In this document: piece after piece, positions 1,262 through 51,625 of the stretch
How the letters are laid out: each line of letters opens with the position of its first letter
How positions within the stretch are numbered: position 1 is the first letter of the stretch
Assembly (NCBI GenBank): GCA_964634595.1
Contig: CAZWKU010000001.1
Coordinates: 3,688 to 67,687 of the forward strand
From: an uncultured Candidatus Saccharibacteria bacterium
Lineage (GTDB): Bacteria; Patescibacteriota; Minisyncoccia; Phycocordibacterales; Phycocordibacteraceae
DNA length: 64,000 nt
Direction of reading: 5' to 3'
Made by a program: the position numbers and the translations under genes
The notes under the pieces: model-generated
Seen by the model: only the letters and a program-made list of their open reading frames with translations
Database searches by the model: none
Told to the model about the DNA's origin: nothing

Positions 1262-2142
1262 ACTGTTGACTGCTGACTGTCTACTGTTTTCTTTTTTAAA
1301 TACACCTTGCCCGGGAAGCGCAAGTCAATATAGTCGAGTGCACCGCTTGAAAGATCGAGTTCACTTTTCGCTGAAATGAGATCAGCAAAAGCCGCAACTT
1401 CGCTACCCACCACATAGGTCACGCGTGTCCCGCTCGCAAGTATCAGATCAGCTTCGTCATCACGAAAAATAAGCTTTGTCACCGATGAGCCAAGCTCACC
1501 CACACGACGGGCGAAGTCAAACGCATCTGGGAGCGCCTCTGCGTGCTTAAGCGTAGCGCGCAGTGCGACCTCCCCACTCACCAGCGGGTCGTACACAGCA
1601 AATGAGTTCAATGTTGGGCTCGTTGACGCGGCCAGAGCAAAAATAAAACCCTCTGCATCAATGAAATAGCACTCCCCCTGCTCGGCACTTTCTGTACCAC
1701 CACACCACGTGGCGACCGCAGTGCGCCCATGCGTCTCGATAGCAATACTCGTGAGATTTATGCGACGCACGGAGACCGCCTGCACCCGAGCGTCGTGTGC
1801 AGCAAGTGCACGGCGTATTGCCCCAATGGGGAGAAAGAGTATCGAATCACGCGGGATAAGCCACGCATACGAACCGGTGAGAGCCGATGCGACCAGCGCT
1901 TCATGTTCAGTGTTCGCGGGCACTACCACAGTATGGGCAACGCGCACCGAGGGTTGCCAGGTAGCCCATACCCCCACCGCAAGTAGCACAATCGCGAGAA
2001 TGCTAAGAAGGATACTGAGTCGCTTGCGCGATCGGCGGCGGCGCTCCTTCAGTCGCCCCGTCTCACTCTCACTCACCCGGCGCTCTGATAACTTCTTTCC
2101 CCACATACTGAACCAAAGCCTCAGGCACACGAATCGAACCAT
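1258..2142 (-). CDS. ftsQ: cell division protein FtsQ/DivIB-like (POTRA domain). True start is probably the internal M near 2106.
   Basis: Has a basic N-terminus, one TM helix, then a POTRA-like segment (VRVAHTVVVPANTEHEALV...IRRALAAHDARVQAVSVRRINLTSIAIETHGRTAVATW). The longest ORF overlaps the serS stop. Confidence 0.55.
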   Translation of the reverse strand: MVRFVCLRLWFSMWGKKLSERRVSESETGRLKERRRRSRKRLSILLSILAIVLLAVGVWATWQPSVRVAHTVVVPANTEHEALVASALTGSYAWLIPRDSILFLPIGAIRRALAAHDARVQAVSVRRINLTSIAIETHGRTAVATWCGGTESAEQGECYFIDAEGFIFALAASTSPTLNSFAVYDPLVSGEVALRATLKHAEALPDAFDFARRVGELGSSVTKLIFRDDEADLILASGTRVTYVVGSEVAAFADLISAKSELDLSSGALDYIDLRFPGKVYLKKKTVDSQQSTV

Positions 2143-3352
2143 CAGGTTGCTGGTAATTCTCTACCAAAACCGCAAGAAAACGTGGCGTTGCAAGCGCGGT
2201 GTTATTAAGGGAGTGTGCAAACTTTAAGCTGCCGTCGGCGTCGCGATAGCGGATATTGAGGCGACGGGTCTGAAAATCGTGAAAATATGATGAGGAGTGT
2301 GTCTCGCGATAGCGATTTTCTGAAGGCATCCAGCACTCGATGTCATACTTCTTAACCTGGCCAAGCCCTAGGTCACCCCCGCAATTTACGACCACGTGGT
2401 AGGGGATCTTCAGAGCCTGAATTGCTTCTTCGGCATTTTGAGTAAGCTCTTCGTGGTGCTTCACACTTGCCTCATGTGAGGCTTCGCACAAAATGACCTG
2501 TTCAAATTTGTAAAACTCGTGCACACGCACCAACCCCTTGGTGTCTTTGCCGTGCGCCCCTGCCTCGCGCCTGAAACAGGGTGAAAAGGAGAAATATTTT
2601 ATCGGGAATTGCTTAGCGTCGACAACTTCGTCCATGTAGTAACCCATCGTGGCAACCTCGGCTGTGCCCGCGAGGTATTCATCATCCTGCGTCTTGTAGA
2701 GATCCTCTTCACTTTGAGGCAAATAGCCCGTGCCCATAAACGACTCGCGACGCACCAGCGAGGGCACGATCATGGGCGAAAAGCCCCCTTTTTTTGTGAA
2801 GTGATCAGAGAGAAAGTGCCAGAGCGCATACGAGAGGAGAGCGCCATCATTTTTTAAAAAGTACCCGCGAAATCCTGCCACCTTCGCTCCTCTATCAAAG
2901 TCAGCCATGTCGAGTTTTACCATGAGCTCTGCATGACTCTTGGGCTTCACGACTGGGGAGCCGTCGACTGACGGGCTACCCCACGTGCGCACCTCCATAT
3001 TTTCAGCGTCTGAATCACCCTCAGGCACTGACATATCCGGGATATTAGGCACCATGAGCATGAGCTCTCGCCATTCGTCCATTACTTTTTTAAGCTCTGC
3101 TTCGGTCTCGCCCATACCCGCCTTCAAGTGCTGCATTGCCTCAATAAGCTTTTCGCGCTCAGCGTCTCTCGCACGACTAATCTCTCCCGAAGCGCGATTT
3201 TGCTCAGCGCGTTTACCATCGAGCTCGCGACGTAACGCAAGGCGGCGATCGTCGACCGCAAGCAAACGATCAATATCTACAGTGATATGCTTTTTAACTG
3301 CCCCTGCTTTGACCAGGTCAGCGTTCTCTTTAATAAAATGAATATCAAGCAT
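2069..3352 (-). CDS. serS: seryl-tRNA synthetase
   Basis: 427 aa. Starts MLDIHFIKEN, has an N-terminal coiled-coil arm and class II catalytic motifs. Confidence 0.9.
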   Translation of the reverse strand: MLDIHFIKENADLVKAGAVKKHITVDIDRLLAVDDRRLALRRELDGKRAEQNRASGEISRARDAEREKLIEAMQHLKAGMGETEAELKKVMDEWRELMLMVPNIPDMSVPEGDSDAENMEVRTWGSPSVDGSPVVKPKSHAELMVKLDMADFDRGAKVAGFRGYFLKNDGALLSYALWHFLSDHFTKKGGFSPMIVPSLVRRESFMGTGYLPQSEEDLYKTQDDEYLAGTAEVATMGYYMDEVVDAKQFPIKYFSFSPCFRREAGAHGKDTKGLVRVHEFYKFEQVILCEASHEASVKHHEELTQNAEEAIQALKIPYHVVVNCGGDLGLGQVKKYDIECWMPSENRYRETHSSSYFHDFQTRRLNIRYRDADGSLKFAHSLNNTALATPRFLAVLVENYQQPDGSIRVPEALVQYVGKEVIRAPGE

Positions 3353-12522: not shown

Positions 12523-13480
12523 ATGCGCGCAAAAGCGCGACAAGGGCATTTCCCCGGCACTGCGCCATTTGGGTATTTGAATAATCCAGCGACTAAAACT
12601 ATCGTGGTTGATCGCAAAAAAGCTCCTATCGTTAAAGCCGCCTTCGAGCTCTACTCTAAAAACGATTCGACCTTAGACGACATCTCTCAATTTCTTTTTA
12701 ACGGCGGCGTCAAAAGCTATGGCGGCTTTGCTCTCCATAAAAACCGCATCAAGTTCGTTCTCGCCAATCCATTTTATTATGGGCAGTTTTTGTATGGTGG
12801 TGAATTGTATGAAGGAAAGCATTTGCCACTCATCACCAAGGCTTTGTTCGATAAAGTGCAAAAGGTGATGCTTGAGCGAAGCCATCCGCAAGTCTTTAAA
12901 GTACAACCTCAAGCATTTTGCGGCCTCATGTTTTGTGGAGAGTGCGGTTTTATGATTACCGCCGAGAAACAAAAAGGGCATGTGTACTATCGCTGTACCA
13001 AAAAAGCGGCGCTTCGCTGTTCACAACGCTATACCCGTGAAGAACAACTCGCCGCCGATTTTTCCGACCTCATTAGTATGTTTGTCCTGTCCGAGAAATG
13101 GGCACGAGATTTTGAGCATCGTATGAAAATTGATAGTCGCGAGTCCGGTCGGACGACTGCCGAGGCAGTCGCAAGGTTCAGGAGTGAGATAGTGGAGATA
13201 GGCCAGAAGCTCGATCGTCTTATGGATCTCTATATTTCGCAGGATATTGAGCGCGACTTGTATTTGGCAAAACGTCGCGCGCTTATGTCCGACAAGCGGA
13301 CGAAGGAGGAGCAAATCTTGAGTTTGGAGAAGAACAGCTCTGCATGGCTCGAACCGATGTCCAGGTGGATAAATGAGGCAGAAAATCTAGCCCAAATACA
13401 AAATGCCCCCTCTCTCCCCGCCAAAAAATCCGCCCTTCAAAAAATCTTCGGCTCGAACCTGAAACTCCAAAACCAAAAAG
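12523..13480 (+). pseudogene. large serine recombinase remnant with the N-terminal resolvase catalytic domain missing
   Basis: Begins inside the alpha-E linker (RAKARQGHFPGTAPFGY), then the recombinase domain, a zinc ribbon (CGECG...YYRC...C) and a coiled coil. Only 86 bp lie upstream before the divergent gene, so there is no room for a catalytic domain. The listed ORF reads on through the repeat and tRNA by chance. Confidence 0.85.
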
Positions 13481-13560
13481 TCTCTGGCACGGCGCATCCA
13501 CTCTACGCGGCGGTAGCCGCCGCGCGGGAAAATCCCGACCATCTCGATTCTGTATCTGTC
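13478..13560. repeat. right arm of long inverted repeat, abutting the 3' end of tRNA-Leu(CAA)
   Basis: 95% identical (79/83) to the reverse complement of 11391-11473. Contains the hairpins CGCGGCGG-tag-CCGCCGCG and CGGGA-aaa-TCCCG. Confidence 0.85.
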
Positions 13561-13561
13561 G

Positions 13562-13645
13562 TGGTGCCGGGGGAGAGACTTGAACTCTCAAGACTTGCGT
13601 CGGTGGGTTTTGAATCCACTGCGTTTACCATTTCGCCACCCCGGC
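13562..13645 (-). tRNA. tRNA-Leu (anticodon CAA), class II
   Basis: Minus-strand sequence GCCGGGGTGGCGAAATGGTAAACGCAGTGGATTCAAAACCCAC...GAGAGTTCAAGTCTCTCCCCCGGCACCA. Anticodon loop UUCAAAA, long variable arm, T-arm GAGAG/TTCAAGT/CTCTC. Confidence 0.8.
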
Positions 13646-13732
13646 AATATGCATATCCTACGCCAAAAACGGCTTTTTGAGAATTGTGTGAGCCGTGCTA
13701 CCTTGCACCCAGATCGAACAAGGAGAACTGTT

Positions 13733-27000: not shown

Positions 27001-28239
27001 CTAGAACTGATCTGTCGATTGTGGAGGATTTGATGGGGGCTGCGGCGGAGCAGGAGGAGTAGGCTGTGATGGAGCAAAAGTCATCTTCGGGATTTTTGGT
27101 TTCAGCATAAGCCCGAAGAGCGTGATTAGTACGAGAGCGGCGAAGCCCATGCCAGCCCAAGGTAGCCAGGGATACATTTCTGTAAGACGACTTTCTCCCG
27201 GATCGCACACGTCACCAATGCCATCGCCATCAGTATCTGTCTGATTTCGATTCGGGTCTTCCGGACAGTTGTCGCGGTCGTTTATGAGGCCATCGCGATC
27301 AAAGTCGTCGCAGGCGTCTCCCCTGCCATTTGTATCTACATCTCTCTGGTCATCATTTGGTACAGAAACACAGTTATCAAGAGTATCTGGGATGCTGTCA
27401 GTGTCGGTGTCGGCGGGTTTAAAAGCCGGATTTTCGACCAGACGAGCTGATTCGAGTCGCAAGATATCGACTGTGCCAGCAAGATTGCCCGACTCCCCTA
27501 CGGGTGGGCGGACGTATCGGTCGGGATCGAGGTACAGACGGTAGCTCTCTTCTGGTTTGGCCAAGAAACGCACTGCGCTCGCGCTCGCGACCGTCGCGTT
27601 TTCCTGACGTAGCTTTATTTCTGTGATGCGCAATGGTTGTCCGTAGGTAAGGCTAAACGTCCACGTCTTTGAAGTAGTCTTTGGGAAGAGGATGTCCGCA
27701 CTCGTGGGGCGCGTCGCCGCCAACACTATCACTCCGCCGTCTTTGCGAATGGTAACGGACGTCGGGAGTGCGACATTTGCGTCGAGAAGAAGGGTGAGGG
27801 ACGAGCTCGTCACTGGGCTCACGCCCGTCAGCACTATTTCTACCTTACCCTGCCCTGTTTCTGGAAGCGAGAACTCGCGGAAAGTGAGCACATTATTGTC
27901 GAGTAGGGCCGAGAGGCTTGATGCTGCACTGCCTACTTGCGATACGGTTTGTGCAGAAAGCGCAATCTCGTTTTTAATACGTTCAGAAATGAACAGCGTC
28001 GGCTCAAATCCCCCGGTCGCAACATCGATGAGCGCGACATCAGTACGATTTAGTTCTATCCCCGTAAGCGGTACCTCAACCACGGTAGGGACTTTAATTG
28101 GAAACGTGCCAAGTTCAACGTAACTCTGAAAGACCGACGCAACATCCGTAGGTGGTGGCGTTGGGGGAGTAGCCGCTGCAAATGATGGAGCGGCAAAAAG
28201 AAGGCTCGCAAAAACACCGGTTACAAGGAAATTACGCAT
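27001..28239 (-). CDS. secreted/anchored protein with thrombospondin type-3 (calcium-binding) repeats and a C-terminal TM anchor
   Basis: Signal peptide [26 protein letters not shown]3 repeats [49 protein letters not shown]-terminal hydrophobic helix and a Pro-rich tail. Trimmed from 28365 to avoid overlap with the upstream gene. Confidence 0.6.
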
Positions 28240-29977
28240 GGTCTCTTGTTCTTTCTTCAATAATACGGGGCTCGCTTCGCTTACCCAAAAACGCCGTACC
28301 AATAAGGAGCGCGCCGATGAGGAAGAAGGTGATGATACGCCCTGTGAGCTCCATCTTCCAAACATCGACCATTAACAGCCGTGCGACTACTATCCCCAAG
28401 AGGATACCTCCGTAGAGGAGGAGGCCTCGCTTTTCTTGCGTGCGACCCATGAAATAGGTAGTAATACCTATCACGGTATACACCACAAGTGCAATCATGG
28501 TAGCCAGGTCGTCGTTGGTGAGACCAGCATGGAGCGAGAGCCAGAGAAGTATGTATGCGTAGGCTGAACCGGCAACGAGAAGCAGAGCATTACCCGATCG
28601 GTCTTCAGAGTTTCCTGACGACTGTTTTACAAAGTAGCTCCCCAGAACAAGGAGCGCGACCGCAAGCACCGCGAGAACGAAAAATTCATCGTGAACAACC
28701 CCCTGCCTCCATGCAGGCGACGCAATGCTCTCAAACGACAGCACACCAGGGATAATAAAAAGAGCGCACAGTCGCCGTGCGATTCTTGTATCTTGGAGAA
28801 GCGCGCTCGCGATAAGTGGCAGCACCGCACTCTCGAGCGTTAAGGCAATGATCAGTGCCGACCCCTGAAGCTCGAACGCAGTGGCTGCCCCCAAGAACAC
28901 CACGCCAATACCCGAATACACAAAGAATGGCTCACGACGGCCCGTGGCCTGACAAAGCACAAACGCTCCTACCACAAATATAAGCATCCATGCAGCAACA
29001 CTAAGACTCTGCCACTCGGGTGATACGCCGTAGAGGATCCACGTAAGTAGAAAAGCGCCGTTCCCTGCTGCCGTAAGGAGGTCGGCGCTGTAAGAATTGT
29101 CCTTGAGCTTCATCAGGCTCACGGTGTTGGTGACAAAGAAGATTGCGGCAAAGGCGTAGGCAAACAGGAGCACCGTATCGCGATCAGCGCTGTTAAAGAG
29201 GTACGGGAGAGAGTAAAACGCGACCAGGATAAGCGCTGCAAAAGTAATATCTTTCATCCCGCTTACTGCAACTACCCACACCGCACCGAGCACCACTACC
29301 ATGAGGTACGCGAAGAGCAAAACAGTGTCAGACGTTCGGTCATCAACAAGAAAGGGAGCGATACCTGCGAGCACTAAGCTCGCAAGTGCAAGCGCACGAC
29401 TCTTGTAGAGAGCCGCGGCGGCGGCAACAAAGACGGTACTCAAGAACATGACACCGAGCGCCGATGCTGGTGTAAAAAAATCATACAGCGTGCGAGCGGC
29501 AAACAGAGTAAGGAGGATAGTGGTTGAACCCACCACCAAGAAGATTCCACCCTGGTGAATGCGCGTGCGAATACGCCACCACCCAAGGCCGATAAAGAGC
29601 ACACCCCCCGCAATGCCAAGGAGGATGCGCCCTTGCTCTCCTATCCAATTGTTTAAAAACGCATACGTGGTCAACCAGCCAAAACCGATAAGCAAGAGGA
29701 GCGCGCCAAGTTTCATCAGCCAATCCTCAGCAAGCCAAGCAAAAAAGGCGTTTGGCGCTGGTGCCGTCGTTTCAGTATCTACTACGCTTTCTTGAAGTCC
29801 GCTCTGTCTGGGAGCATGGGTCTCGTCAAGAGAAGTGGCGCTGGCAGTAACTGGAGCAACACTCGCCTGCCCTGGCCTACTCTGCAGGTTTTTAAGTTGT
29901 CGCTCAAGCGCATTTACCCTGCTGTGCACATGCACAAGTACCGCCACAAAGATGACTAAAAGCAAGGTGAAGATCAT
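28232..29977 (-). CDS. polytopic membrane protein, DUF2339-like
   Basis: 581 aa with an N-terminal helix/coiled coil followed by more than 12 TM helices. Confidence 0.5.
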
Positions 29978-38637: not shown

Positions 38638-38732
38638 GGGAGGTTGGCAGAGAGGCTTAATGCACTCGTTTTCCAAACGAGCGGGTGACGATTAAAGAAA
38701 CCCCGCAGGTTCGAATCCTGTACCTCCCGCCA
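38638..38732 (+). tRNA. tRNA with a class-II (long variable arm) structure and G73, apparent anticodon UCC. Isotype unresolved.
   Basis: GGGAGGT acceptor pairs perfectly with ACCTCCC, then G, then CCA. 3-bp D-stem GCA/TGC. Anticodon stem CTCGT/ACGAG with loop UUUCCAA. 23-nt variable arm. T-arm GCAGG/TTCGAAT/CCTGT. Confidence 0.6.
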
Positions 38733-38819: not shown

Positions 38820-41291
38820 TTAAAGGGCTACTAGGGAGGCAATGCTGTCGCCCTCGTAGAGCTTCATGATACGGACGCCCTGGGTGGCGCGGCCGAGCGA
38901 GGGAATTTCGGCGACACTGGTGCGGATTACCTGGCCTTTTTTAGAAACAACTACCAGCTCCTCTTCTTTCAGATCGCCCATGATCACGCGCGCGCCGATA
39001 ATCTCGCCCGTTTTCGCCGTTACCTCGGCGGTCTTAATGCCCGAGCCACCGCGACCCTGTATCTTGTACTCGTCTATCTCGGTGTGCTTGCCGTAGCCCT
39101 TTGCCATCACCACCAAGAGGTGTGCGCTCTTAGCCGCGGCAGCAGGTATAACCTCAGCTGAGACGACCTCGTCGCTCTTTTTTACCATGATCCCGCGTAC
39201 GCCCCCGGCAGTGCGGCCCATCTGGCGCACATCTGACTCGTCAAAGCGTATCGACTGCCCTTTCGAAGTCACGAGTGAGACGCTGTCGCCCTCGGCGGCG
39301 AGATTGGCCGAGACGAGCTTGTCGCCACTCTGAAGATTAATCGCGATGATGCCCGAACGACGCACATCGCTAAATGATTTAGCCGCAACTTTCTTAACCG
39401 TACCATCTCTAGTCACCAAAACCACCGAAAGTGCGTCCCATGCCGCCCCCTTTTGCACGGGCAAAATAGAGGTTACCCGCTCCTCACCTGCGAGCGGCAA
39501 AAAGTTCATGATGCTCTTACCCTTAGTCGCGCGCTTGCCTTCGGGGATGTCATACATCTTTGCTTGGTACACCTTGCCGTAGTCAGTAAAGAAGAGGAGG
39601 TCAGCGTGTGCTGAAGCAACCAAGAAATGCGTCACGATATCTTCTTCTTTCGTTGCCATGTCCACCACACCCACGCCACCGCGCTTTTGGCGACGATACT
39701 CATCGGGGTTCGTGCGCTTTACATACCCACCCTGCGTGAGGACAAGCATTGAGTCTTCATCGGGCACCAAGTCTTCAACCGAAATATTCTTTACCCCGCC
39801 CTTTACGATGCGGGTACGACGGTCATCACCATACTTCTCGCTCACCTCCTTGAGCTCGTCCTTTACCACGCCCAAAATCTTTTTCGCAGATGAGAGAATA
39901 TCGGCGAGTTTCTTAATAATGCCTTGCACCTCGGCGAGCTCGTCTTCGATCTTCTTGCGCTCAAGGCCCGCAAGCTTCGATAGGCGCATCTCGAGGATAG
40001 CGGCAGCCTGCAACTCAGAGAACCTAAACTTCTTTTGGAGCTCGAGAGACGCGGTGGGCACGTCCGCAGCTTTTTTTATTATCGCTATAACCTCATCGAT
40101 ATGGTCGAGCGCCTTTGAGAGCCCGAGGAGGATATGCTCACGCGCCTCAGCTTGCTTTAAGTCAAACTCGGTACGACGCTTCACTACCTCGCGGCGGTGC
40201 GCCACAAAATGCTCGAGCATGCTCTTCAATGAGAGTGTCTGCGGCACCCCATCAACCAGCGCAAGCATGTTGTAGTGAAATGCTGACTCGAGCTCGGTAT
40301 ATTTGTAGATGTTATTTAAAACTGCCTGCGGGTGCGCCGTGCCCTTAAGCTCAACCACGACACGGATATCTGCGGTAGACTCGTCGCGCAAATCGCGAAT
40401 ACCCTCGATCTTTTTTTCGTGCACCAACTCGGCAATTCTCGTAATTAGCTCTGCCTTGTTAACGCGATACGGTATCGAGGTTATAATTATTTTCGACTCC
40501 TTTTTGCCGTCATCAACAATCTCAGCTTCGCCCCGCACGATAACCGGCCCCTTGCCATTGGCATAGGCGTGCTTGATATCTGCCTGATTAAACGCGACCC
40601 CTCCGAGCGGGAAATCTGGACCCTTCACAAACTGCAATAAATCTTCAGTAGCCGCGTCTGGAGTGTCTATTAAATGAATAGTGGCCTCTATCACCTCCCT
40701 GAGATTGTGGGGTGGGATGTTGGTTGCCATACCTACCGCAATCCCCAAGGTGCCATTTAAAAGGAGGTTCGGTACTGCCGCAGGTAACACCCTGGGCTCT
40801 TGCCGTGTCGCATCATAGTTTGGATTCCAGGCGACAGTCTCTTTATCAAGATCCTTGAGGAGATCGTCGGCAAGGCGGCTCATTTTTGCCTCGGTATAGC
40901 GCATCGCGGCAGGCGAGTCACCGTCTACAGAGCCGAAGTTACCTTGCCCTAAGACCAGCGGGTAGCGATATGAAAACTCTTGTGCCATTTTGGTCATTGA
41001 GTCATACACGGCGACATCACCGTGTGGGTGATACTTACCAAGCACGTCGCCCACCACCAGCGCCGACTTACGAAATTTTGCTCCGGGCGCAAGCCCGAGT
41101 TCGCGCATCGCGTAGAGGATGCGACGATGAACGGGCTTCAACCCGTCGCGCACGTCGGGCAGGGCGCGCGACGTTATTACCGACATGGCGTAGTCGAGGT
41201 ACGAGGTGCGCATCTCGCCGACAATCGGCTGAGGGATAACTGACCCTCCGCCTTGCGCGCTCGACGCTTCTTTCTCTACTTTCTTAGCCAT
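38820..41291 (-). CDS. gyrA: DNA gyrase subunit A
   Basis: [29 protein letters not shown] with the active-site Tyr region, plus a C-terminal beta-pinwheel. Confidence 0.95.
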
Positions 41292-45360: not shown

Positions 45361-45798
45361 TCAGGCAAGCGAGAGATAGAAAGATTTTTTATGTCTCTCA
45401 AACCTAACATTAAAATTGAGAAAGAAGTCCTGCTGACCCAATATGATATCGAAATTTTTATGCAGATCTTGAATAAAGAGGGTTGAAAAGGTAAATACTT
45501 TATCGAATTCTTCAAACTGCAGATTTACCGGAGCAAGAAACCCTTCTTTCGGATATTCATCAATGCCCACAAGACGCCCCCTAGGTCGACCTTCGGTACT
45601 AACCTCCAGCAATTCTGCAATCGCCATATCCATAACAGTCACTTCAGTACCAGAATCAACCAGCGCTTTAAAACGGCGCGATTTTGTGTTGCTGCTCACC
45701 GCAACATCGATGAGCGGTCTGTAGCAGAAATCTAAAACACCCGCACGCACCTTGGATTGCACCGTATACGCATACCGTTTCTCTTCGTTATCGGTCAT
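45361..45798 (-). CDS. retropepsin-like (clan AA) aspartic protease, module copy 2
   Basis: FKALVDSGTEVTVM (D-S-G-T active-site block) and a later DIILGQQDFFLNF hydrophobic-Gly motif. 145 aa. Confidence 0.6.
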   Translation of the reverse strand: MTDNEEKRYAYTVQSKVRAGVLDFCYRPLIDVAVSSNTKSRRFKALVDSGTEVTVMDMAIAELLEVSTEGRPRGRLVGIDEYPKEGFLAPVNLQFEEFDKVFTFSTLFIQDLHKNFDIILGQQDFFLNFNVRFERHKKSFYLSLA

Positions 45799-45808
45799 GA
45801 CTGAGATT

Positions 45809-46012
45809 TCAGAATGTCAAATACACATCGGATGCGGGAACTTTCATGAAGGTGACATTTTGTCCCTGTACTTTTCTATCGAGCGCCAGCAAATTAGCAT
45901 CATAGGCAATGACTTTCTTGTTGTCTTTTGAGAGCGCAACCCATTTCTGCTCATGCTCTTTGTTCAGGACCTTACTTAAATCTATTGTGTTAAGCATAGG
46001 CCTATCATACAC
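45809..46012 (-). CDS. small partner protein of the aspartic-protease module (copy 2), hypothetical
   Basis: 67 aa, 10 nt upstream of the protease. Homologous to 12191-12436. Confidence 0.5.
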   Translation of the reverse strand: MYDRPMLNTIDLSKVLNKEHEQKWVALSKDNKKVIAYDANLLALDRKVQGQNVTFMKVPASDVYLTF

Positions 46013-46100: not shown

Positions 46101-46703
46101 ATGCAACGCTTGCCAGGTGGATTCGTGAAAGACCTTTTCACCCTGGCACTCCTTATTGTTCTCGTAGTCTTGCCTCTGCGACTGTTTGTCATCTCTCCCT
46201 TTGTGGTTGATGGCGAATCCATGCATCCCACATTTCAACACCTTGATTACCTGATCATTGACGAGATCTCGTATCGCTTTAAAGCGCCGGTACGGGGCGA
46301 CGTCATAGTCTTTCGCTATCCACTGAACCCTTCAACTTTTTACATCAAGCGCATTATAGGCCTCCCAGGCGAGACCGTCTCGATTACTCGCGGCAAAGTG
46401 AGTGTCAAAGGCCCCACGGGCACTACTGAGACGCTTACCGAGCCGTACGTCGCGACTGAAGACGCAACCTACACTAAAATCGTCGTGCTTGGCAGCGATG
46501 AATATTTCGTCATGGGCGACAACCGCCCTAATAGCTCTGATTCGCGCCGCTGGGGTGCCCTACCGCGAGAAAATATTGTGGGTAGGGCGCTTGTCCGACT
46601 TCTCCCCGTCACCAATGCAGGATTTTCACCTGGCGCAGGGGCGCCGATATTGAGCGCGAACCTCCCCTTCCCGGGCAGTGAGGTACTGCAACCAACCCTA
46701 TGA
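46101..46703 (+). CDS. lepB: signal peptidase I
   Basis: GESMHPT (catalytic Ser) and GDNRPNSSDSR. Confidence 0.9.
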   Translation: MQRLPGGFVKDLFTLALLIVLVVLPLRLFVISPFVVDGESMHPTFQHLDYLIIDEISYRFKAPVRGDVIVFRYPLNPSTFYIKRIIGLPGETVSITRGKVSVKGPTGTTETLTEPYVATEDATYTKIVVLGSDEYFVMGDNRPNSSDSRRWGALPRENIVGRALVRLLPVTNAGFSPGAGAPILSANLPFPGSEVLQPTL

Positions 46704-47851
46704 CCGAAACACCCCTGTCAGCTGAAGAAGTGTTGCGTCGTGCGCACGCCGTCGGCGACTACTACGGATTTGTTTCTTTCGCCGCGCTAGCACTTGCTGA
46801 ACGTGACAAGCGCGCAAATGTCCCGAAACAAGATCCGCCCCAACTCTCTGCGCTCGACAAGAATGCTGAGATCGTGGCAAATTTTCTTCGGCAGTGCCGC
46901 GATCTGGGGCTTTTCACTGTCCCTCGCCAACCGCTTTTTGTCTGGCACTCGAATATCGCTCCTGGGCGCCCAGCGCCCAAGGTCGCTCATATTCAATTTC
47001 ATGCTATTGGGAGCGACCGTGCACTTGCTGACGCGGTAGTGATACGCGCAATACGTGCGCTTGCTCACGACCTTACCAAGGGCGAGGTAACCCTGCGCAT
47101 CAATACGCTCGGGGACAAAGAGACTCGGGCGCGCTACATGCGCGAGCTTGGCAACTTCTTCAAAAAGAAAGGTGCGACGCTACCTGAGGATTGTCTTGCG
47201 GTTGCACGTCGCGACGTTTTCGAGGCGGCCGAGCTCGCGCTCGAGAAACGATATGTTGAAGACCTCCCTGCTCCCACCGAATTTCTATCCGATCAGAGTC
47301 GAAAGCGCTTCGAGGATGTGCTCGAGTATCTTGAGACCACTGACACGCCGTATGAACTCTCGGGCACTCTACTTTCACGTGGGGGCGCTTGGTCTGAAAC
47401 CTGTTTTTCATTTGCGACCGCTGACAAAACACTTGCGTGGGGCTCGCGCTATGGCGATCTTGCACGAGCATTTTTCAAGAGCCCGATGCCTTCGACCGGA
47501 GCGGTGCTCTCAATTGAAACAGAGGGTACAAAGATCTCACCGCTGTCGGCACCCAAAAGCCGTACAAAGTTGCAGTTCGCATTTGTGCACATCGGTGAAG
47601 AAGCGAAACGAGAGTCTCTGAAGATAGTAGAGGAGTTGCGCCACGCACGTCTCCCGCTCTGGCAAATTATAGGGCTTGAATCGCTTACTGAACAAATGCT
47701 CCACGTCGAGCGTCTTGCGCCTCCCTACCTTATCGTGATGGGCCGCAAAGAGGCATTGGAGCGCTCGGTAGTGCTTCGCAATCGCACCACGCAAGAAGAC
47801 ATCGTGATCCCACTCCCCAAGCTCTCCGAACGCCTCCGCACCTTTGCCTAA
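46700..47851 (+). CDS. histidyl-tRNA synthetase-like class II aaRS protein with divergent catalytic motifs (HisS or HisZ-like)
   Basis: QFHAIG (motif 2 end), TLRINTLGDKETRARYMRELGNFF (HisRS-specific block), AWGSRYGDL (motif 3-like), and a C-terminal anticodon-binding-like PYLIVMGRKEALERSVVLRNRTTQEDIVIPL. Confidence 0.5.
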   Translation: MTETPLSAEEVLRRAHAVGDYYGFVSFAALALAERDKRANVPKQDPPQLSALDKNAEIVANFLRQCRDLGLFTVPRQPLFVWHSNIAPGRPAPKVAHIQFHAIGSDRALADAVVIRAIRALAHDLTKGEVTLRINTLGDKETRARYMRELGNFFKKKGATLPEDCLAVARRDVFEAAELALEKRYVEDLPAPTEFLSDQSRKRFEDVLEYLETTDTPYELSGTLLSRGGAWSETCFSFATADKTLAWGSRYGDLARAFFKSPMPSTGAVLSIETEGTKISPLSAPKSRTKLQFAFVHIGEEAKRESLKIVEELRHARLPLWQIIGLESLTEQMLHVERLAPPYLIVMGRKEALERSVVLRNRTTQEDIVIPLPKLSERLRTFA

Positions 47852-48064: not shown

Positions 48065-48460
48065 TCAATTACTATTGGCCTGATTGCCAACAATTCTTCT
48101 CGACACGGTTGCTGGGGGATAGGCTCCCAGAAATAAACCGCTTTTCTCGATGAGGGTATTCGAGCCAACGTAGCCCCTAATGCCGTTCTTCTCTGGGTTA
48201 ATGACGAGCACCGCATCAGCCCATTCGATTTTTGAAAAATGGAGCTTGATAGCCTCGGCCTTGCGTTCCCAAACCCACAGATCATCATCTTGAGCAGACT
48301 TACGCTTTGCATAGTACTCAAGTACGGGAAGTTGTTCCCCGTTCTCATTTAATACGTGCAGTGGCGGCATCTTGACTTCATGCCCTAGAGTCTCCAATTG
48401 CGCGCCAGTCGCAATCATATTTGGCATGAAAGCGATACTGCCGCATATAGCAATTTTCAT
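48065..48460 (-). CDS. Rossmann-like protein, possibly nucleoside 2-deoxyribosyltransferase-like
   Basis: Starts MKIAICGSIAF. 131 aa. Weak, architecture-level call. Confidence 0.3.
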   Translation of the reverse strand: MKIAICGSIAFMPNMIATGAQLETLGHEVKMPPLHVLNENGEQLPVLEYYAKRKSAQDDDLWVWERKAEAIKLHFSKIEWADAVLVINPEKNGIRGYVGSNTLIEKSGLFLGAYPPATVSRRIVGNQANSN

Positions 48461-48525: not shown

Positions 48526-48798
48526 GTGGCGCACATGGATACTACAGCACGGGTTGAGGTACGGCGCGGGAAGAACGAGAGTTCTTCAGCGCTTATTCGC
48601 CGTTTCTCACGCCGCGCACAGGGGCTAGGAGTGGTGCGCGAGATGCGCGATCGCCGCTACTGGGAGCGCAACAAGTCAAAAAACGTGCACCACAAGCGCG
48701 CCCTTATCTCGCTCGCACGCCGCGAGCACTACCATGAGCTGGTGAAGCTCGGCAAGATAGACCCAGCCGCGCGCACCAAGCGAGGCAAAAAGAAGTAG
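48526..48798 (+). CDS. rpsU: 30S ribosomal protein S21
   Basis: VEVRRGKNESSSALIRRFSRR...RYWERNKSKNVHHKRA. Confidence 0.8.
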   Translation: MAHMDTTARVEVRRGKNESSSALIRRFSRRAQGLGVVREMRDRRYWERNKSKNVHHKRALISLARREHYHELVKLGKIDPAARTKRGKKK

Positions 48799-48809
48799 CT
48801 CGGCCAGAG

Positions 48810-49241
48810 ATGCCGCAACCCTACGCGCGCATTGCACGAAAAATACTCCCTCACTGGGAGCTTTCGCTTGCATTTGTGACACCGCGTGCGGCGGCGGCAC
48901 TTAATCGGCGCCTGCGCGGCAAATCGTACACGCCAAATGTACTCTCCTATGTGGTTGGTAAAAGGCATGGGGAGATCATTATTTGCAAGTCAGTCGCTTA
49001 TCAACAGGCCGCCTCTTTCGAGCTTTCAAAGAGAGATTTCCTCGCATTTCTCTTTATCCACGCACTCCTCCATTTGAAGGGAGGGCGTCACGGCACTACA
49101 ATGGAGAGACGCGAACATACGCTCTTGAAAAAGTTTCAGAGCAAAACGCGAATTCTTACCTATGGCTCGACGCATCGCAACCGGCATCGACATCGGCACC
49201 TCACAAATAAAGGTGGTCGTCGTCGAAGAGATCCGCGATAA
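48810..49241 (+). CDS. ybeY: endoribonuclease YbeY (rRNA maturation factor)
   Basis: FIHALLHLKGGRHG resembles the H3xH5xH metal site. The 3' end overlaps ftsA in another frame, so the true stop may be earlier. Confidence 0.65.
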   Translation: MPQPYARIARKILPHWELSLAFVTPRAAAALNRRLRGKSYTPNVLSYVVGKRHGEIIICKSVAYQQAASFELSKRDFLAFLFIHALLHLKGGRHGTTMERREHTLLKKFQSKTRILTYGSTHRNRHRHRHLTNKGGRRRRDPR

Positions 49242-50328
49242 ACGCGAACGCTTTTTGCGTGTGCTTGGCACAGGGCTTGCTGAGTCTCGCGGTCTCCGGC
49301 AAGGATACGTGGTCAATAAGGAGGAGGTGACTGAGGCTATACGCGAAGCGAAACGCCAGGCTGAAGCGGCGTCCCGCGTGCCAATACGAAGCGCCTTTCT
49401 TGCGGTCGGCGGTATATCGATCGATGAAGCGCGCGCAACGGGAGAGACCATCATCGGCCGTGCCGACCAAGTAGTCTCTTCAATTGATATCGAAAAGGCG
49501 GGTGCCGCGGCCCACGAAGCTGCGACACCACATTTTCTTAACCGTCGCGTACTTCACGATATACCGCTTGAGTATCGCCTCGATGGCGCAAAAGTCATGG
49601 GCAACCCAAGCGGCATGAAAGGTGTACGACTTGAGGTTGACTACCTTTTCGTCTCAGTACTTACCCAGCACCTTGAGACACTTATCCACGCGGTCGAGGG
49701 CACGGAGGTAGAAGTGATAGATCAAATGGCCGCGACACTTGCGGGCGCAAACGTGCTCCTTACGAAAGACCAACAGCGCCGCGGATGCTTGCTTGCTAAC
49801 CTTGGAGCCGAGACTACCTCAATAGTTGTCTTCGACGAAGGTGTGCCCGTCTCGATAAAAGTCATACCTATGGGCAGTGCCGACATTACAAACGACATAG
49901 CTCTCGGCCTTAGAATATCTCTTGACGAAGCAGAGCGCGTTAAGACCGGACGCCTGACCGGCGCTATGTATCCGCGCAAAAAAGTTGATGCACTTATTGA
50001 GCGCCGGCTTGAAGATATATGTGAAGTAGTCGAAAAGCATCTGAAGTCGCTTAATCGTCGCGGCCCACTACCTGCAGGAGTGATAATCGCCGGAGGCGGT
50101 GCGGCGCAAAGTGCGATAACTGATATCGTGCGGAGCGCCTTGAAGCTCCCGGCGAGACTTGCAGAATTCCGCCTCACGAACGACCCGAAGTTACGAGATG
50201 CTACCTGGGCAGTAGCCTACGGCCTCGCCCTCTGGGGCCTCACTGGTGAGACTGAGTCACATAAAAACAGCTGGCCGAGTGAGGTGGTGCGTAGCGCTAC
50301 ACAATTTTTCAAACAATTTCTACCCTAG
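49162..50328 (+). CDS. ftsA: cell division protein FtsA
   Basis: Actin-fold motifs GIDIGTSQIKVVV and IIAGGGAAQS. Confidence 0.85.
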   Translation: MARRIATGIDIGTSQIKVVVVEEIRDKRERFLRVLGTGLAESRGLRQGYVVNKEEVTEAIREAKRQAEAASRVPIRSAFLAVGGISIDEARATGETIIGRADQVVSSIDIEKAGAAAHEAATPHFLNRRVLHDIPLEYRLDGAKVMGNPSGMKGVRLEVDYLFVSVLTQHLETLIHAVEGTEVEVIDQMAATLAGANVLLTKDQQRRGCLLANLGAETTSIVVFDEGVPVSIKVIPMGSADITNDIALGLRISLDEAERVKTGRLTGAMYPRKKVDALIERRLEDICEVVEKHLKSLNRRGPLPAGVIIAGGGAAQSAITDIVRSALKLPARLAEFRLTNDPKLRDATWAVAYGLALWGLTGETESHKNSWPSEVVRSATQFFKQFLP

Positions 50329-50404
50329 CCACTGACACGCGTCCGCGTTCTGTCAATCTTTGCATAATCGCCCGCTTTGGTATCATGCGGGCACATCTCT
50401 CCAT

Positions 50405-51625
50405 ATGGCTAAACGTATACAACCCGAGATTGAGACTTTTGCTCGCATCCGCGTTGTAGGTGTCGGTGGGTCAGGTCGCAATGCGGTAAACCATATGGTC
50501 AATTCTAATGTGCGCGGCGTGGAGTTTGTTGCGGTCAACACCGACGCCCAAGACCTCCACGGCTCGCTCGCGAAAAAGAAAATCCATATTGGCAAAAACC
50601 TTACTCGCGGCCTTGGAGCTGGCATGAACCCTGAGGTAGGTCGCCGTGCCGCCGAGGAGACTCGTCAACACATCCAAGAGGCACTCCAGGGGTCTGACCT
50701 GGTCTTTATCACCTGCGGGCTTGGTGGGGGCACGGGGACAGGCGCCGCGCCCATTGTTGCCAAAGTCGCCAAAGAGCTCGGGGCTCTTACGATTGCTGTT
50801 GTCACCAAACCCTTCGCGTTTGAAGGCGCCATGCGCAAAGACATCGCCGAGCGCGGCCTCGCCGAGCTCAAGAAAGAGGTTGATGCGTTCATCGTCATAC
50901 AAAACGACAAGCTCCTCGCAATTTCTGAGCCAGGCACCAGCGCAAAACAAGCATTCGCCCTGTGCGATGAGATACTGCGCCAAGCGGTTGAGGGGGTCTC
51001 TGACATTATCCGCACACCAGGCGACGTCAACACTGACTTCAACGACATTAAGGCCATTATGGAGGATGCCGGCCCAGCCCTCATGGGCATCGGCATCGCC
51101 GAGGGTGAAGAACGTGCAAAAGAGGCCGCAAAGCGCGCCGTCAACTCCCCCCTCCTTGATATATCGATAAATGGTGCGAAGGGCATCCTTTTTGTAGTCG
51201 CCGGCTCCGACGATCTCGGGATTATTGAGATACAGGAGGCGGCTAAAGTAGTGAATGAATCGGTAGATAAAAATGCCAAAATCATTTTCGGCATGATGAA
51301 GGATAGAAAACTCAAGAAGGGGCAGATCCGCATTATCGTCATCGCGACTGGCTTTCCCGAACAGGCAGTGCATGTCGCCCAAGAGCGTTCCCTCTTCTCC
51401 CTCCCTACCGACCGGCGTCAAGAAGAGCGGGGCAAGATCTACAACGAGGTCCTAAAGCGTCCTGAACCAGAGCCCGAGCCGGCTCCCCTCCCCCGAGAGG
51501 TTCGCGCCGAACCTCTCGTCACCGCATTACCCGCAGAGATACGCCCAGAGCCAAAGCCTCCCGTTGAAGACGAAGATGAGGCATGGGGCGCGATACCTGC
51601 ATTTCTCCGACGCCACAGAAAATAA
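50405..51625 (+). CDS. ftsZ: cell division protein FtsZ
   Basis: RIRVVGVGGSGRNAVNHM and tubulin signature GGGTGTGAAP. Start trimmed to MAKRIQPE. Confidence 0.9.
   Translation: MAKRIQPEIETFARIRVVGVGGSGRNAVNHMVNSNVRGVEFVAVNTDAQDLHGSLAKKKIHIGKNLTRGLGAGMNPEVGRRAAEETRQHIQEALQGSDLVFITCGLGGGTGTGAAPIVAKVAKELGALTIAVVTKPFAFEGAMRKDIAERGLAELKKEVDAFIVIQNDKLLAISEPGTSAKQAFALCDEILRQAVEGVSDIIRTPGDVNTDFNDIKAIMEDAGPALMGIGIAEGEERAKEAAKRAVNSPLLDISINGAKGILFVVAGSDDLGIIEIQEAAKVVNESVDKNAKIIFGMMKDRKLKKGQIRIIVIATGFPEQAVHVAQERSLFSLPTDRRQEERGKIYNEVLKRPEPEPEPAPLPREVRAEPLVTALPAEIRPEPKPPVEDEDEAWGAIPAFLRRHRK

What the first reader, a model, noticed from the sequence alone, without database searches (positions are those of the whole stretch)
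46700..47851. HisRS-like class II synthetase with degenerate catalytic motifs
The protein keeps HisRS hallmarks (QFHAIG, the TLRINTLGDKETRARYMRELGNFF block, and a C-terminal anticodon-binding-like domain). The motif-2 loop is FVWHSNIAPGRPAPKVAHIQF where the canonical sequence is FRxERPQxGRxREF, and motif 3 reads AWGSRYGDL. The protein is 383 aa and overlaps the lepB stop by 4 nt. It is either the organism's only, highly divergent, HisRS or a HisZ-like or regulatory paralog.
Basis: partly seen in the sequence, partly recalled or inferred. Interest (0 to 1): 0.5.

Follow-up and report, generated by a model that had tools for sequence, protein, structure and literature searches.

The report
Catalytically degenerate hisS ortholog in Patescibacteria
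The gene sits exactly where related bacteria keep their normal histidyl-tRNA synthetase gene, but in this large lineage it has lost almost every residue needed to charge tRNA while keeping its tRNA-binding domain, so how these cells make His-tRNA is an open question.

Summary
ORF 46700..47851 (+, 383 aa) overlaps the lepB stop by ATGA. It has a HisRS fold and a C-terminal anticodon-binding domain. The class II catalytic residues are missing. The true motif 3 (residues 264-276) has Thr where the arginine should be and lacks its helix.

The protein belongs to a large, monophyletic, fast-evolving Patescibacteria family. At least 454 GTDB species carry the close type, and 398 clusters at 50% identity match with E<=1e-30.

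Other Patescibacteria (Staskawicz-, Colwell-, Magasanik-, Portnoybacteria) carry a fully canonical hisS in the same slot: pth - lepB - X - rpsU - ybeY - ftsA - ftsZ. The window gene is therefore the positional ortholog of hisS, not HisZ and not an obvious extra paralog.

Active-site columns that are invariant in canonical HisRS are retained in only 0-10% of family members. The invariant columns of the anticodon-binding domain are retained in about 80-100%.

Best reading: a pseudo-synthetase that still binds tRNA or another ligand. I could not test whether a second, working HisRS exists elsewhere in these genomes. That is the decisive open point.

The parts
46700..47851 (+). Gene for the degenerate HisRS ortholog (383 aa plus stop).
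   Evidence: ORF. TIGR00442 hisS scores only 92 bits against a cutoff of 286.75, aligned to profile positions 125-403 only. AF2 pLDDT 91, pTM 0.91. Best folds are HisRS.
46754..46771 (+). Motif-1 remnant GDYYGF (residues 19-24), part of the class II dimer-interface region.
   Evidence: G19, Y22, G23 and F24 are invariant in 41 family members. G23 and F24 are conserved across the superfamily. It aligns with the YYGF/FYGF of canonical CPR HisRS.
46853..46870 (+). LDKNAE (residues 52-57), the remnant of the histidine-binding LRPEGT loop. The preceding TDIVEKEMY hairpin is deleted.
   Evidence: The columns for E. coli R81, P82 and T85 are retained in 1%, 8% and 0% of 77 degenerate sequences. The columns for T60-M67 are gaps.
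46934..47017 (+). Degenerate motif 2 (residues 79-106, LFVWHSNIAPGRPAPKVAHIQFHAIGSD). The FRxER segment is lost. The pocket is remodelled but invariant within the close family.
   Evidence: Retention of E. coli R113 is 4%, E115 1%, R121 5%, Q127 10%, E131 26%. hhalign places a 7-residue deletion over FRHER and pairs G89-R90 with G120-R121. 11 of these 28 residues are invariant in the 41-sequence family.
47018..47374 (+). HisRS insertion domain (residues 107-225), with INTLGDKETR, FLSDQSRKRF and VLEYLE...PY.
   Evidence: This is the best conserved region of the superfamily. N135, G138, P190, L196, R201, E209, E212 and Y218 are invariant or nearly so in 128 sequences. The canonical anchors N166, G169, P223 and Y251 are retained in 95-100%.
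47375..47410 (+). His-A remnant (residues 226-237, SRGGAWSETCFS, against canonical RGLDYYxxTVFE).
   Evidence: The column for the catalytic R259 is retained in 3%, and Y264 in 32% (W in the close family). The TxFE part is kept.
47435..47461 (+). His-B motif AWGSRYGDL (residues 246-254), equivalent to canonical GGGRYD.
   Evidence: G248 and R250 are invariant in all 104 aligned sequences, both degenerate and canonical.
47489..47527 (+). Degenerate motif 3 (residues 264-276, PSTGAVLSIETEG). The arginine position is T274 and the motif-3 helix is absent.
   Evidence: The R311 column is retained in 4% and G308 in 0%. T or S occupies this position in 34 of 41 family members, with no Arg. The AF2 model has one long strand at 265-275 followed by a low-confidence linker and no helix.
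47576..47848 (+). Anticodon-binding domain (residues 293-383), intact.
   Evidence: PF03129 is hit in 41 of 41 family members. The canonical invariant columns are retained: G337 100%, R352 92%, Q372 97%, A376 79%, G388 99%, E391 100%, Q407 79%.
46101..46703 (+). lepB (S26 signal peptidase), immediately upstream with an ATGA overlap.
   Evidence: Pfam PF10502, E 5e-44. A lepB homolog lies directly upstream in 81 of 82 related loci. The same holds upstream of canonical hisS in other Patescibacteria.
48526..51625 (+). Conserved downstream genes: rpsU-like (48526..48798), ybeY (48810..49241), ftsA (49162..50328), ftsZ (50360..51625).
   Evidence: tblastn synteny across 82 loci. Pfam labels in L002, L083, L084 and L168-L170.

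Best explanation
The gene is the positional ortholog of hisS. In one large Patescibacteria clade (Kaiserbacteria and relatives within Paceibacteria) it has become a pseudo-synthetase.

Shown:
- It keeps the HisRS architecture: motif-1 region, insertion domain, GGRY motif and an intact anticodon-binding domain.
- It has lost or deleted the N-terminal GxxD and TDIVEKEMY elements, the RPExT histidine loop, the motif-2 FRxE arginine and glutamate with the loop arginines, the catalytic His-A arginine, and the motif-3 arginine with its helix.

Inferred:
- It cannot bind ATP in the class II manner, so it cannot activate histidine or charge tRNA.
- It is kept under purifying selection for a non-catalytic job that uses the parts still conserved.
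- The most likely job is binding tRNA (probably tRNA-His) through the anticodon-binding and insertion domains of a basic protein. In the close family the remodelled former active-site pocket may serve as a small-ligand site.
- It is co-expressed with lepB, rpsU and ybeY.
- On this reading, His-tRNA synthesis must come from another gene outside the window. That gene was not seen.
For: Orthology by position:
- Ten loci from different Patescibacteria lineages carry a canonical hisS between lepB and rpsU/ybeY/ftsA/ftsZ.
- These genes hit PF13393, PF00587 and PF03129, and score 427-458 bits on TIGR00442.
- The degenerate form occupies the same slot in 81 of 82 close loci and in two members only 26-29% identical to the window protein.

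Loss of catalysis:
- In an alignment with 27 canonical HisRS, the 86 columns conserved at 90% or more split cleanly.
- Active-site columns are retained in 0-10% of 77 degenerate sequences: R113 4%, E115 1%, R121 5%, Q127 10%, R259 3%, R311 4%, T85 0%.
- All 7 invariant columns of the anticodon-binding domain are retained in 79-100%.
- hhalign of the family against canonical CPR HisRS gives probability 99.9 over 374 columns, with the FRxER segment deleted.
- No family member hits Pfam tRNA-synt_His (0 of 41).
- TIGR00442 scores are 86-159 bits and cover only profile positions from about 121 onward.

Internal control: SerRS in the same window has an intact motif 2 (FRRE) and motif-3 Arg, scores 114 bits on the class II core model, and has pI 5.7.

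Selection pattern:
- The family is monophyletic on a long stem, sister to canonical CPR HisRS.
- It evolves about twice as fast as its neighbours: 26-33% identity where LepB, FtsA and FtsZ are 50-60%.
- Canonical HisS keeps pace with those neighbours.
- The ORF stays intact in 454 GTDB species, and 71 positions are invariant in the close family.

Nucleic-acid binding hint: median pI is 8.7-9.1, against 5.6 for E. coli HisRS and 5.7-5.8 for this organism's own aaRSs.
Against: - No second HisRS gene was found. Nothing turned up in the window, in the extra flanks of the same contigs or in 1.17 Mb of related loci.
- Every canonical CPR-type hisS I could place sits in the lepB slot, never elsewhere.
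- No contig length was shared between the canonical hits and the contigs that carry the degenerate form. The two forms therefore look mutually exclusive, and the required 'other HisRS' is pure inference.
- Histidine codons are used normally: 2.3% of codons in 13 window genes.
- In the close family the remodelled pocket is highly conserved (H83, N85, G89, R90, Q99, F100, H101, D106, R227, W231, R250, Y251). That would also fit a still-working but unorthodox active site.
- tRNA binding was not tested. The pI is only a hint.
Confidence: 0.6

Rival explanations
1. It is still the cell's working HisRS. A radically remodelled active site uses R90, H83, N85, H101, R227 and R250 in place of the canonical arginines.
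For: It sits in the ancestral hisS slot, and no other HisRS was seen anywhere I could look. The GGRY motif, the anticodon-binding domain and the insertion domain are retained. The pocket residues are invariant within the close family. hhalign pairs G89-R90 with the motif-2 loop G120-R121.
Against: The putative substitute residues are not conserved across the orthologous superfamily: H83, N85, R90, Q99, F100, H101 and R227 all vary in 128 sequences. That is not expected if all members catalyse the same reaction. The motif-2 Arg and Glu, the motif-3 Arg with its helix, the RPExT loop and the N-terminal hairpin are all missing. To my knowledge no active class II aaRS lacks both arginines. The rate acceleration relative to neighbours indicates relaxed constraint.
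Confidence: 0.1
2. It is a small-ligand sensor or regulator. This would be HisZ-like in logic but with a different partner. The conserved remodelled pocket would bind histidine or a related metabolite and modulate a partner protein or tRNA.
Against: The pocket is not conserved across the wider orthologous superfamily. No partner gene is evident beyond housekeeping neighbours. No effector domain is present.
Confidence: 0.15
3. It is a genuine HisZ, the regulatory subunit of ATP phosphoribosyltransferase. NCBI names some family members this way.
For: NCBI calls P0149 and P0173 'ATP phosphoribosyltransferase regulatory subunit'. Both HisZ and this protein are HisRS-derived proteins without catalytic residues.
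Against: It has a full anticodon-binding domain, which HisZ lacks. Family members score at most 58 bits on TIGR00443 (cutoff 271.65), always below their hisS score. Profile search against PDB finds HisRS but no HisZ at E<=0.01. No HisG or other his gene appears in any of about 90 neighbourhoods with Pfam labels or tblastn. From general knowledge, Patescibacteria lack amino-acid biosynthesis.
Confidence: 0.02
4. It is a decaying relic with no function, on its way to loss.
For: It evolves faster than its neighbours and has lost its catalytic motifs.
Against: It is an intact full-length ORF in 454 GTDB species and in about 400 clusters at 50% identity. 71 positions are invariant in the close family. 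The AF2 model is confident (pLDDT 91). The translationally coupled position is conserved. These genomes are small and streamlined.
Confidence: 0.03

Closest known systems
Bacterial histidyl-tRNA synthetase (HisS; TIGR00442, Pfam PF13393 + PF03129), especially the canonical HisS of other Patescibacteria
   Different: About 40 residues shorter. It lacks the N-terminal GxxD and TDIVEKEMY elements, the RPExT loop, the motif-2 FRxE and loop arginines, the His-A arginine, and the motif-3 arginine with its helix. It scores 92 bits against the 286.75 cutoff. It is basic rather than acidic. It evolves about twice as fast relative to its neighbours.
HisZ, regulatory subunit of ATP phosphoribosyltransferase (TIGR00443; PDB 3od1, 1z7m, 1usy)
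   Different: HisZ has no anticodon-binding domain, arose as a paralog alongside a working HisS, partners with HisG and keeps the histidine site. This protein has the anticodon-binding domain, sits in the hisS slot, has no hisG nearby and fails the HisZ model.
HisRS-like domain of the eukaryotic kinase GCN2 (PDB 9bf3, 9cbs, 8t7t)
   Different: GCN2's domain is fused to a kinase and other domains in eukaryotes. This is a stand-alone bacterial protein with no effector domain. Any sensing role here is speculation.
[not shown]
   Same: A class II aaRS scaffold kept for binding rather than catalysis.
   Different: Those are paralogs that coexist with the working enzyme. This one is the positional ortholog, and coexistence with a working HisRS is not demonstrated.

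Membership tests
Histidyl-tRNA synthetase (functional HisS) | Class II motif 2 with the invariant Arg and Glu (E. coli FRHE, R113 and E115) and the loop arginines (R121, R123). | tested here: not met
   Columns are retained in 4%, 1%, 5% and 4% of 77 degenerate sequences. In the window protein they are deleted or replaced.
Histidyl-tRNA synthetase (functional HisS) | Class II motif 3 strand-helix with the invariant Arg (E. coli R311). | tested here: not met
   T274 occupies this position. There is no Arg in 41 of 41 family members. Retention is 4% in the superfamily. The AF2 model has no helix after strand 265-275.
Histidyl-tRNA synthetase (functional HisS) | HisRS-specific His-A motif RGLDYY with the catalytic Arg (R259), and the histidine-binding RPExT loop. 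| tested here: not met
   Retention is R259 3%, R81 1%, T85 0%. The close family has an Arg one position later (R227), which is not conserved in the superfamily.
Histidyl-tRNA synthetase (functional HisS) | HisRS-specific His-B motif GGRYD. | tested here: met
   G248 and R250 are invariant in all 104 sequences. Y251 is retained in 77%.
Histidyl-tRNA synthetase (functional HisS) | C-terminal HGTP anticodon-binding domain. | tested here: met
   PF03129, E 7e-7. It is hit in 41 of 41 members. All 7 canonical invariant columns are retained in 79-100%.
Histidyl-tRNA synthetase (functional HisS) | Score above the curated family cutoffs (TIGR00442 at 286.75 bits; Pfam PF13393). | tested here: not met
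   92 bits for the window protein and 86-159 bits for relatives. Canonical CPR HisS scores 427-458 bits. There is no PF13393 hit in 41 of 41 members.
Histidyl-tRNA synthetase (functional HisS) | Histidine activation and tRNA-His charging activity. | not testable with these tools
   Needs ATP-PPi exchange and aminoacylation assays.
HisZ (ATP-PRT regulatory subunit) | HisRS-like core without an anticodon-binding domain. | tested here: not met
   The anticodon-binding domain is present and conserved.
HisZ (ATP-PRT regulatory subunit) | Score above the TIGR00443 cutoff (271.65 bits). | tested here: not met
   TIGR00443 did not appear for the window protein at E<=1. Relatives score 0-58 bits.
HisZ (ATP-PRT regulatory subunit) | Co-occurrence with short-form HisG and the his pathway. 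| tested here: inconclusive
   No HisG label appears in any neighbourhood read. Whole genomes were not available.
GCN2-type HisRS-like sensor domain | Pseudo-HisRS fused to an effector (a kinase) and binding uncharged tRNA. | tested here: not met
   This is a stand-alone 383-aa protein. The only Pfam domain is PF03129. tRNA binding is not testable here.

The most novel reading that the evidence does not exclude
This whole Patescibacteria clade (hundreds of species) may have no conventional HisRS at all. Its only hisS-derived gene lacks the class II catalytic apparatus. One possibility is that this protein charges tRNA-His by an unprecedented active site, perhaps together with a partner. The other is that the cells obtain HisRS activity or His-tRNA from their hosts.

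My evidence does not exclude this. Canonical and degenerate forms occupy the same locus in different lineages. I never saw them together. No second HisRS turned up in any sequence I could read.
Probability: 0.12. Interest if true: 0.95.

Novelty: new variant of a known kind. Interest (0 to 1): 0.66.

Why it matters
Pseudo-synthetases are known (HisZ, the GCN2 HisRS-like domain, SLIMP), but they are paralogs that sit beside a working enzyme. Here the gene in the ancestral hisS position of a very large bacterial clade has lost the catalytic machinery while keeping its tRNA-recognition domain.

- It is annotated inconsistently in public databases: as histidine--tRNA ligase, HisZ, 'C-terminal domain-containing protein' or hypothetical. 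Genome surveys may therefore be counting a non-enzyme as HisRS.
- It poses a concrete, testable question: where does His-tRNA come from in these organisms?
- It offers a natural series, from canonical to degenerate orthologs in one syntenic slot, for studying how an essential enzyme is repurposed.

Eight full-text searches found no paper describing it.

Tried and rejected
Looking for a second HisRS:
- phmmer of E. coli HisRS and of the protein itself against all six-frame ORFs of the window hit only this gene.
- tblastn of E. coli HisRS against 1.17 Mb of 82 related loci hit only the family gene.
- The flanks beyond both window ends, fetched via SerRS and the class I aaRS, hold no HisRS.

Contig-length 'fingerprint' test:
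- I compared the canonical CPR HisS hits with the contigs that carry the degenerate family. No lengths were shared.
- The test is weak because only the top 120 hits are listed.

Other searches that led nowhere:
- The IMG/VR scan for the family found nothing, so viral contigs are useless as a source of CPR sequence.
- The second protein search with the superfamily profile mostly returned the close family again.
- No tRNA-His gene is in the window or in the 82 family loci, so tRNA identity features could not be examined.
- Eight literature searches and two papers read had nothing on a CPR HisRS-like protein.

Technical failures:
- The AF2 model was lost once on the server and was recomputed with identical results.

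Rejected readings: HisZ, a recent paralog, a pseudogene. Reasons are given under the rival explanations.

A caveat on method. The metagenome scan that found canonical CPR hisS used an artificial query: a superfamily member with a canonical motif 2 pasted in, plus motif peptides. Only the first 600 pattern matches were ranked. The loci it returned are real sequences and were evaluated on their own.
Full report
**1. The observation**

ORF 46700..47851 (+) encodes 383 aa. Its ATG overlaps the TGA of the upstream ORF 46101..46703 (ATGA). That upstream ORF is an S26 signal peptidase, LepB (PF10502, E 5e-44).

Pfam finds only the HGTP anticodon-binding domain (residues 294-380, E 7e-7) and no tRNA-synt_His. 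NCBIfam hisS (TIGR00442) scores 92 bits against a cutoff of 286.75, and aligns only profile positions 125-403. The best PDB sequence match is S. aureus HisRS (E 2.6e-15), again from about residue 100 onward.

An AlphaFold2 model built on a 41-sequence family alignment is confident (pLDDT 91.1, pTM 0.91). Its best structural matches are HisRS:
- Foldseek: the top 49 hits are all HisRS.

**2. Correction to the motif assignment**

The HMMER, MAFFT and hhalign alignments against it agree:
- AWGSRYGDL (residues 246-254) corresponds to AGGRYDGL, the HisRS-specific His-B motif. It is not motif 3.
- Motif 3 (GFAMGLERL) corresponds to PSTGAVLSIETEG (residues 264-276). T274 sits at the arginine position.
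- In the model, strand 265-275 is followed by a low-confidence linker and not by the motif-3 helix.
- hhalign places a 7-residue deletion over the FRxER part of motif 2, and pairs G89-R90 with the loop G120-R121.

The roles of E. coli R113, E115, R121 and R311 (ATP binding), R259 (catalysis) and E83, T85, Q127, E131 and Y264 (histidine binding) are taken from my knowledge of the E. coli and T. thermophilus HisRS structures. They were not tested here.

**3. The family**

The protein has hundreds of close relatives: about 380 aa, 54-72% identical, all from Patescibacteria (Kaiserbacteria, Paceibacteria, Parcubacteria). None has a precomputed PF13393 hit. A scan of one genome per GTDB species found 454 species with a close relative.

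A profile search of 1.84 billion cluster representatives found 398 clusters at E<=1e-30. The best 150 are all full-length proteins of 375-456 aa, 25-52% identical to the window protein.

Conservation differs between the two levels:
- Close family: 71 positions are invariant, including many on the former active-site strands (H83, N85, G89, R90, Q99, F100, H101, A102, G104, D106, R227, W231, C235, G248, R250, Y251).
- Wider superfamily: those pocket positions vary freely. The insertion domain (INSxGD, FLSxxSRxH, VLEYLE..PY), GGRY and the anticodon-binding domain stay conserved.

Public names for members are inconsistent. They include 'histidyl-tRNA synthetase' (JGI), 'histidine--tRNA ligase' (two Cedars MAGs), 'ATP phosphoribosyltransferase regulatory subunit', 'His/Gly/Thr/Pro-type tRNA ligase C-terminal domain-containing protein' and 'hypothetical protein'.

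**4. Genomic context**

In 81 of 82 related loci a lepB homolog lies immediately upstream. The order S1 - pth(-) - lepB - X - rpsU-like - ybeY - ftsA - ftsZ is almost invariant. Two superfamily members only 26-29% identical to the window protein sit in the same slot.

**5. The key result: canonical hisS occupies the same slot elsewhere**

To find canonical HisRS in this phylum I forced a metagenome scan onto the canonical motif-2 peptide patterns. I ranked the hits against a superfamily member carrying a pasted-in motif 2. Only the first 600 pattern matches were ranked.

The top loci (L088-L095) encode fully canonical HisRS of 420-456 aa. They have LRPEGT or LRPEFT, FRYERPQAGRYRQF, RGLDYY, GGGRYD and an intact motif-3 arginine. 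These genes lie between lepB and rpsU/ybeY/ftsA/ftsZ, the same slot.

NCBI names their cluster members 'histidine--tRNA ligase' from Minisyncoccales, Pacebacteria, Magasanikbacteria and Colwellbacteria. A profile of seven of them retrieves 120 further proteins, all with PF13393 + PF00587 + PF03129, named from Staskawicz-, Portnoy- and Parcubacteria. Three more with Pfam-labelled context are again in the lepB slot. They score 427-458 bits on TIGR00442.

The window gene is therefore the positional ortholog of hisS.

**6. What was lost and what was kept**

I aligned 27 canonical HisRS (19 of them from Patescibacteria) with 77 degenerate sequences. In the canonical set, 86 columns are at least 90% conserved.

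Retention in the degenerate set:

| Region | Columns (E. coli numbering) | Retention |
|---|---|---|
| N-terminal elements | G10, D13, T60-M67 | deleted |
| Histidine loop | R81, P82, T85 | 1%, 8%, 0% |
| Motif 2 and loop | R113, E115, R116, R121, R123, Q127 | 4%, 1%, 3%, 5%, 4%, 10% |
| End of motif 2 | E131 | 26% |
| His-A | R259 | 3% |
| Motif 3 | G308, R311 | 0%, 4% |
| His-B | G285, R287, Y288 | 100%, 100%, 77% |
| Insertion-domain anchors | N166, G169, P223, Y251 | 95-100% |
| Anticodon-binding domain | G337, R352, Q372, A376, G388, E391, Q407 | 79-100% |

As an internal control, the window's own SerRS (2069..3352, -) has FRRE and the motif-3 arginine and is recognised normally by Pfam. 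The organism's synthetases are therefore not generally aberrant.

**7. Evolutionary pattern**

A neighbour-joining tree puts all degenerate sequences in one clade on a long stem, sister to the canonical Patescibacteria HisRS. This is a rough distance tree with no support values.

Relative rates:
- Canonical lineages: HisS is as conserved as its neighbours. Examples are 51% against LepB 52% and FtsZ 50%, and 91% against FtsZ 83%.
- Degenerate clade: the gene is far less conserved than its neighbours, at 26-33% against LepB 50-55% and FtsZ 56-60%.
- Within the close family, median identities to the window are 55% against LepB 68%, FtsZ 73% and YbeY 54%.

This fits relaxed constraint after loss of catalysis, with continued purifying selection on a reduced function. 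The proteins are basic (median pI 8.7 in the close family, 9.1 in the superfamily). E. coli HisRS is at 5.6, and this organism's SerRS and class I aaRS are at 5.7-5.8.

**8. Interpretation**

Shown:
- Positional orthology to hisS.
- Clade-wide loss of the class II and HisRS-specific catalytic elements.
- Retention of the anticodon-binding domain, the insertion domain and GGRY.

Inferred:
- No aminoacylation activity.
- A retained binding function, most plausibly for tRNA. In the close family there is also a conserved remodelled pocket that may bind a small ligand.

Not HisZ:
- The anticodon-binding domain is present.
- TIGR00443 scores are at most 58 bits.
- The family profile finds no HisZ in PDB at E<=0.01.
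- No hisG appears in any neighbourhood.

Not a relic: intact ORFs in hundreds of species and a confident fold.

**9. The open point**

If the protein is inactive, another HisRS must exist, since histidine codons make up 2.3% of 13 window genes. I could not find one in the window, in the flanks of the same contigs or in 1.17 Mb of related loci.

Canonical CPR-type hisS was only ever seen in the lepB slot. No contig length was shared between the listed canonical hits and the contigs that carry the degenerate gene.

These negatives are weak. Synteny limits what the loci sample, and only the top 120 hits are listed per search. They do leave a small but real possibility that this clade has no conventional HisRS. 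Scanning the closed genomes named in the next steps would settle it.

**10. Literature**

Eight full-text searches and two papers read gave no description of this family. The library is incomplete, so prior description cannot be excluded.

Noticed in passing
window 38638-38732 (+): A 95-nt tRNA with a long (about 24 nt) variable arm, G73 discriminator and encoded CCA, but anticodon UCC (glycine codon GGA). The shape is like tRNA-Ser. Rfam tRNA scores 52.9 bits. A type-II tRNA with a Gly anticodon is unusual and could mean Ser insertion at GGA or a reassigned identity.
   Followed up: partly
window 8588-10192 (+): The Rel (RelA/SpoT) homolog is only 534 aa. It has HD, synthetase and TGS domains but no further C-terminal Pfam domain. 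The Rel next to a canonical-hisS relative (L168) is at least 577 aa and carries a RelA_RIS domain.
   Followed up: no
window 48065-48460 (-): A 131-aa ORF with no Pfam hit lies between the HisRS-like gene and rpsU. It has a homolog in only 1 of the 82 related loci (L001, the same organism's contig). Elsewhere rpsU follows within about 30-90 nt. It is likely a recent insertion.
   Followed up: partly
window 45361-46012 (-); second copy at about 11.2-12.5 kb (seen as L085 917..1708): A retropepsin-like gene (Asp_protease_2 / gag-asp_proteas) with a small companion ORF lies between pth and lepB. The pair occurs in only 2-3 of the 82 loci and at different positions. A second such gene lies beside ParB and a serine recombinase. 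The pattern suggests a mobile two-gene cassette. GC drops to 0.45 at 44-46 kb.
   Followed up: partly
window 12523-13680 (+) and tRNA-Leu 13562-13645 (-): A large serine recombinase ORF (Recombinase + Zn_ribbon_recom) overlaps a tRNA-Leu(CAA) gene on the other strand. This may mark the end of an integrated element.
   Followed up: no
loci L089-L095, L168-L170 (canonical Patescibacteria HisRS): Canonical CPR HisRS carries seven invariant cysteines in the insertion domain (CxxC-type pairs), suggesting a zinc-binding knuckle. Most are lost in the degenerate orthologs: the C193 column is retained in 1%, C196 in 53% and C210 in 29%.
   Followed up: partly
L002 339-4148 (-), relative GCA_037200965.1: GyrA of a related genome is 1269 aa and contains an intein with a LAGLIDADG endonuclease. 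The window's GyrA (38820-41291, 822 aa) has none.
   Followed up: no
window 27001-29977 (-): Adjacent ORFs with overlapping coordinates encode a 453-aa protein with a thrombospondin type 3 repeat and a 580-aa DUF2339 membrane protein. They may be a surface or adhesion pair.
   Followed up: no
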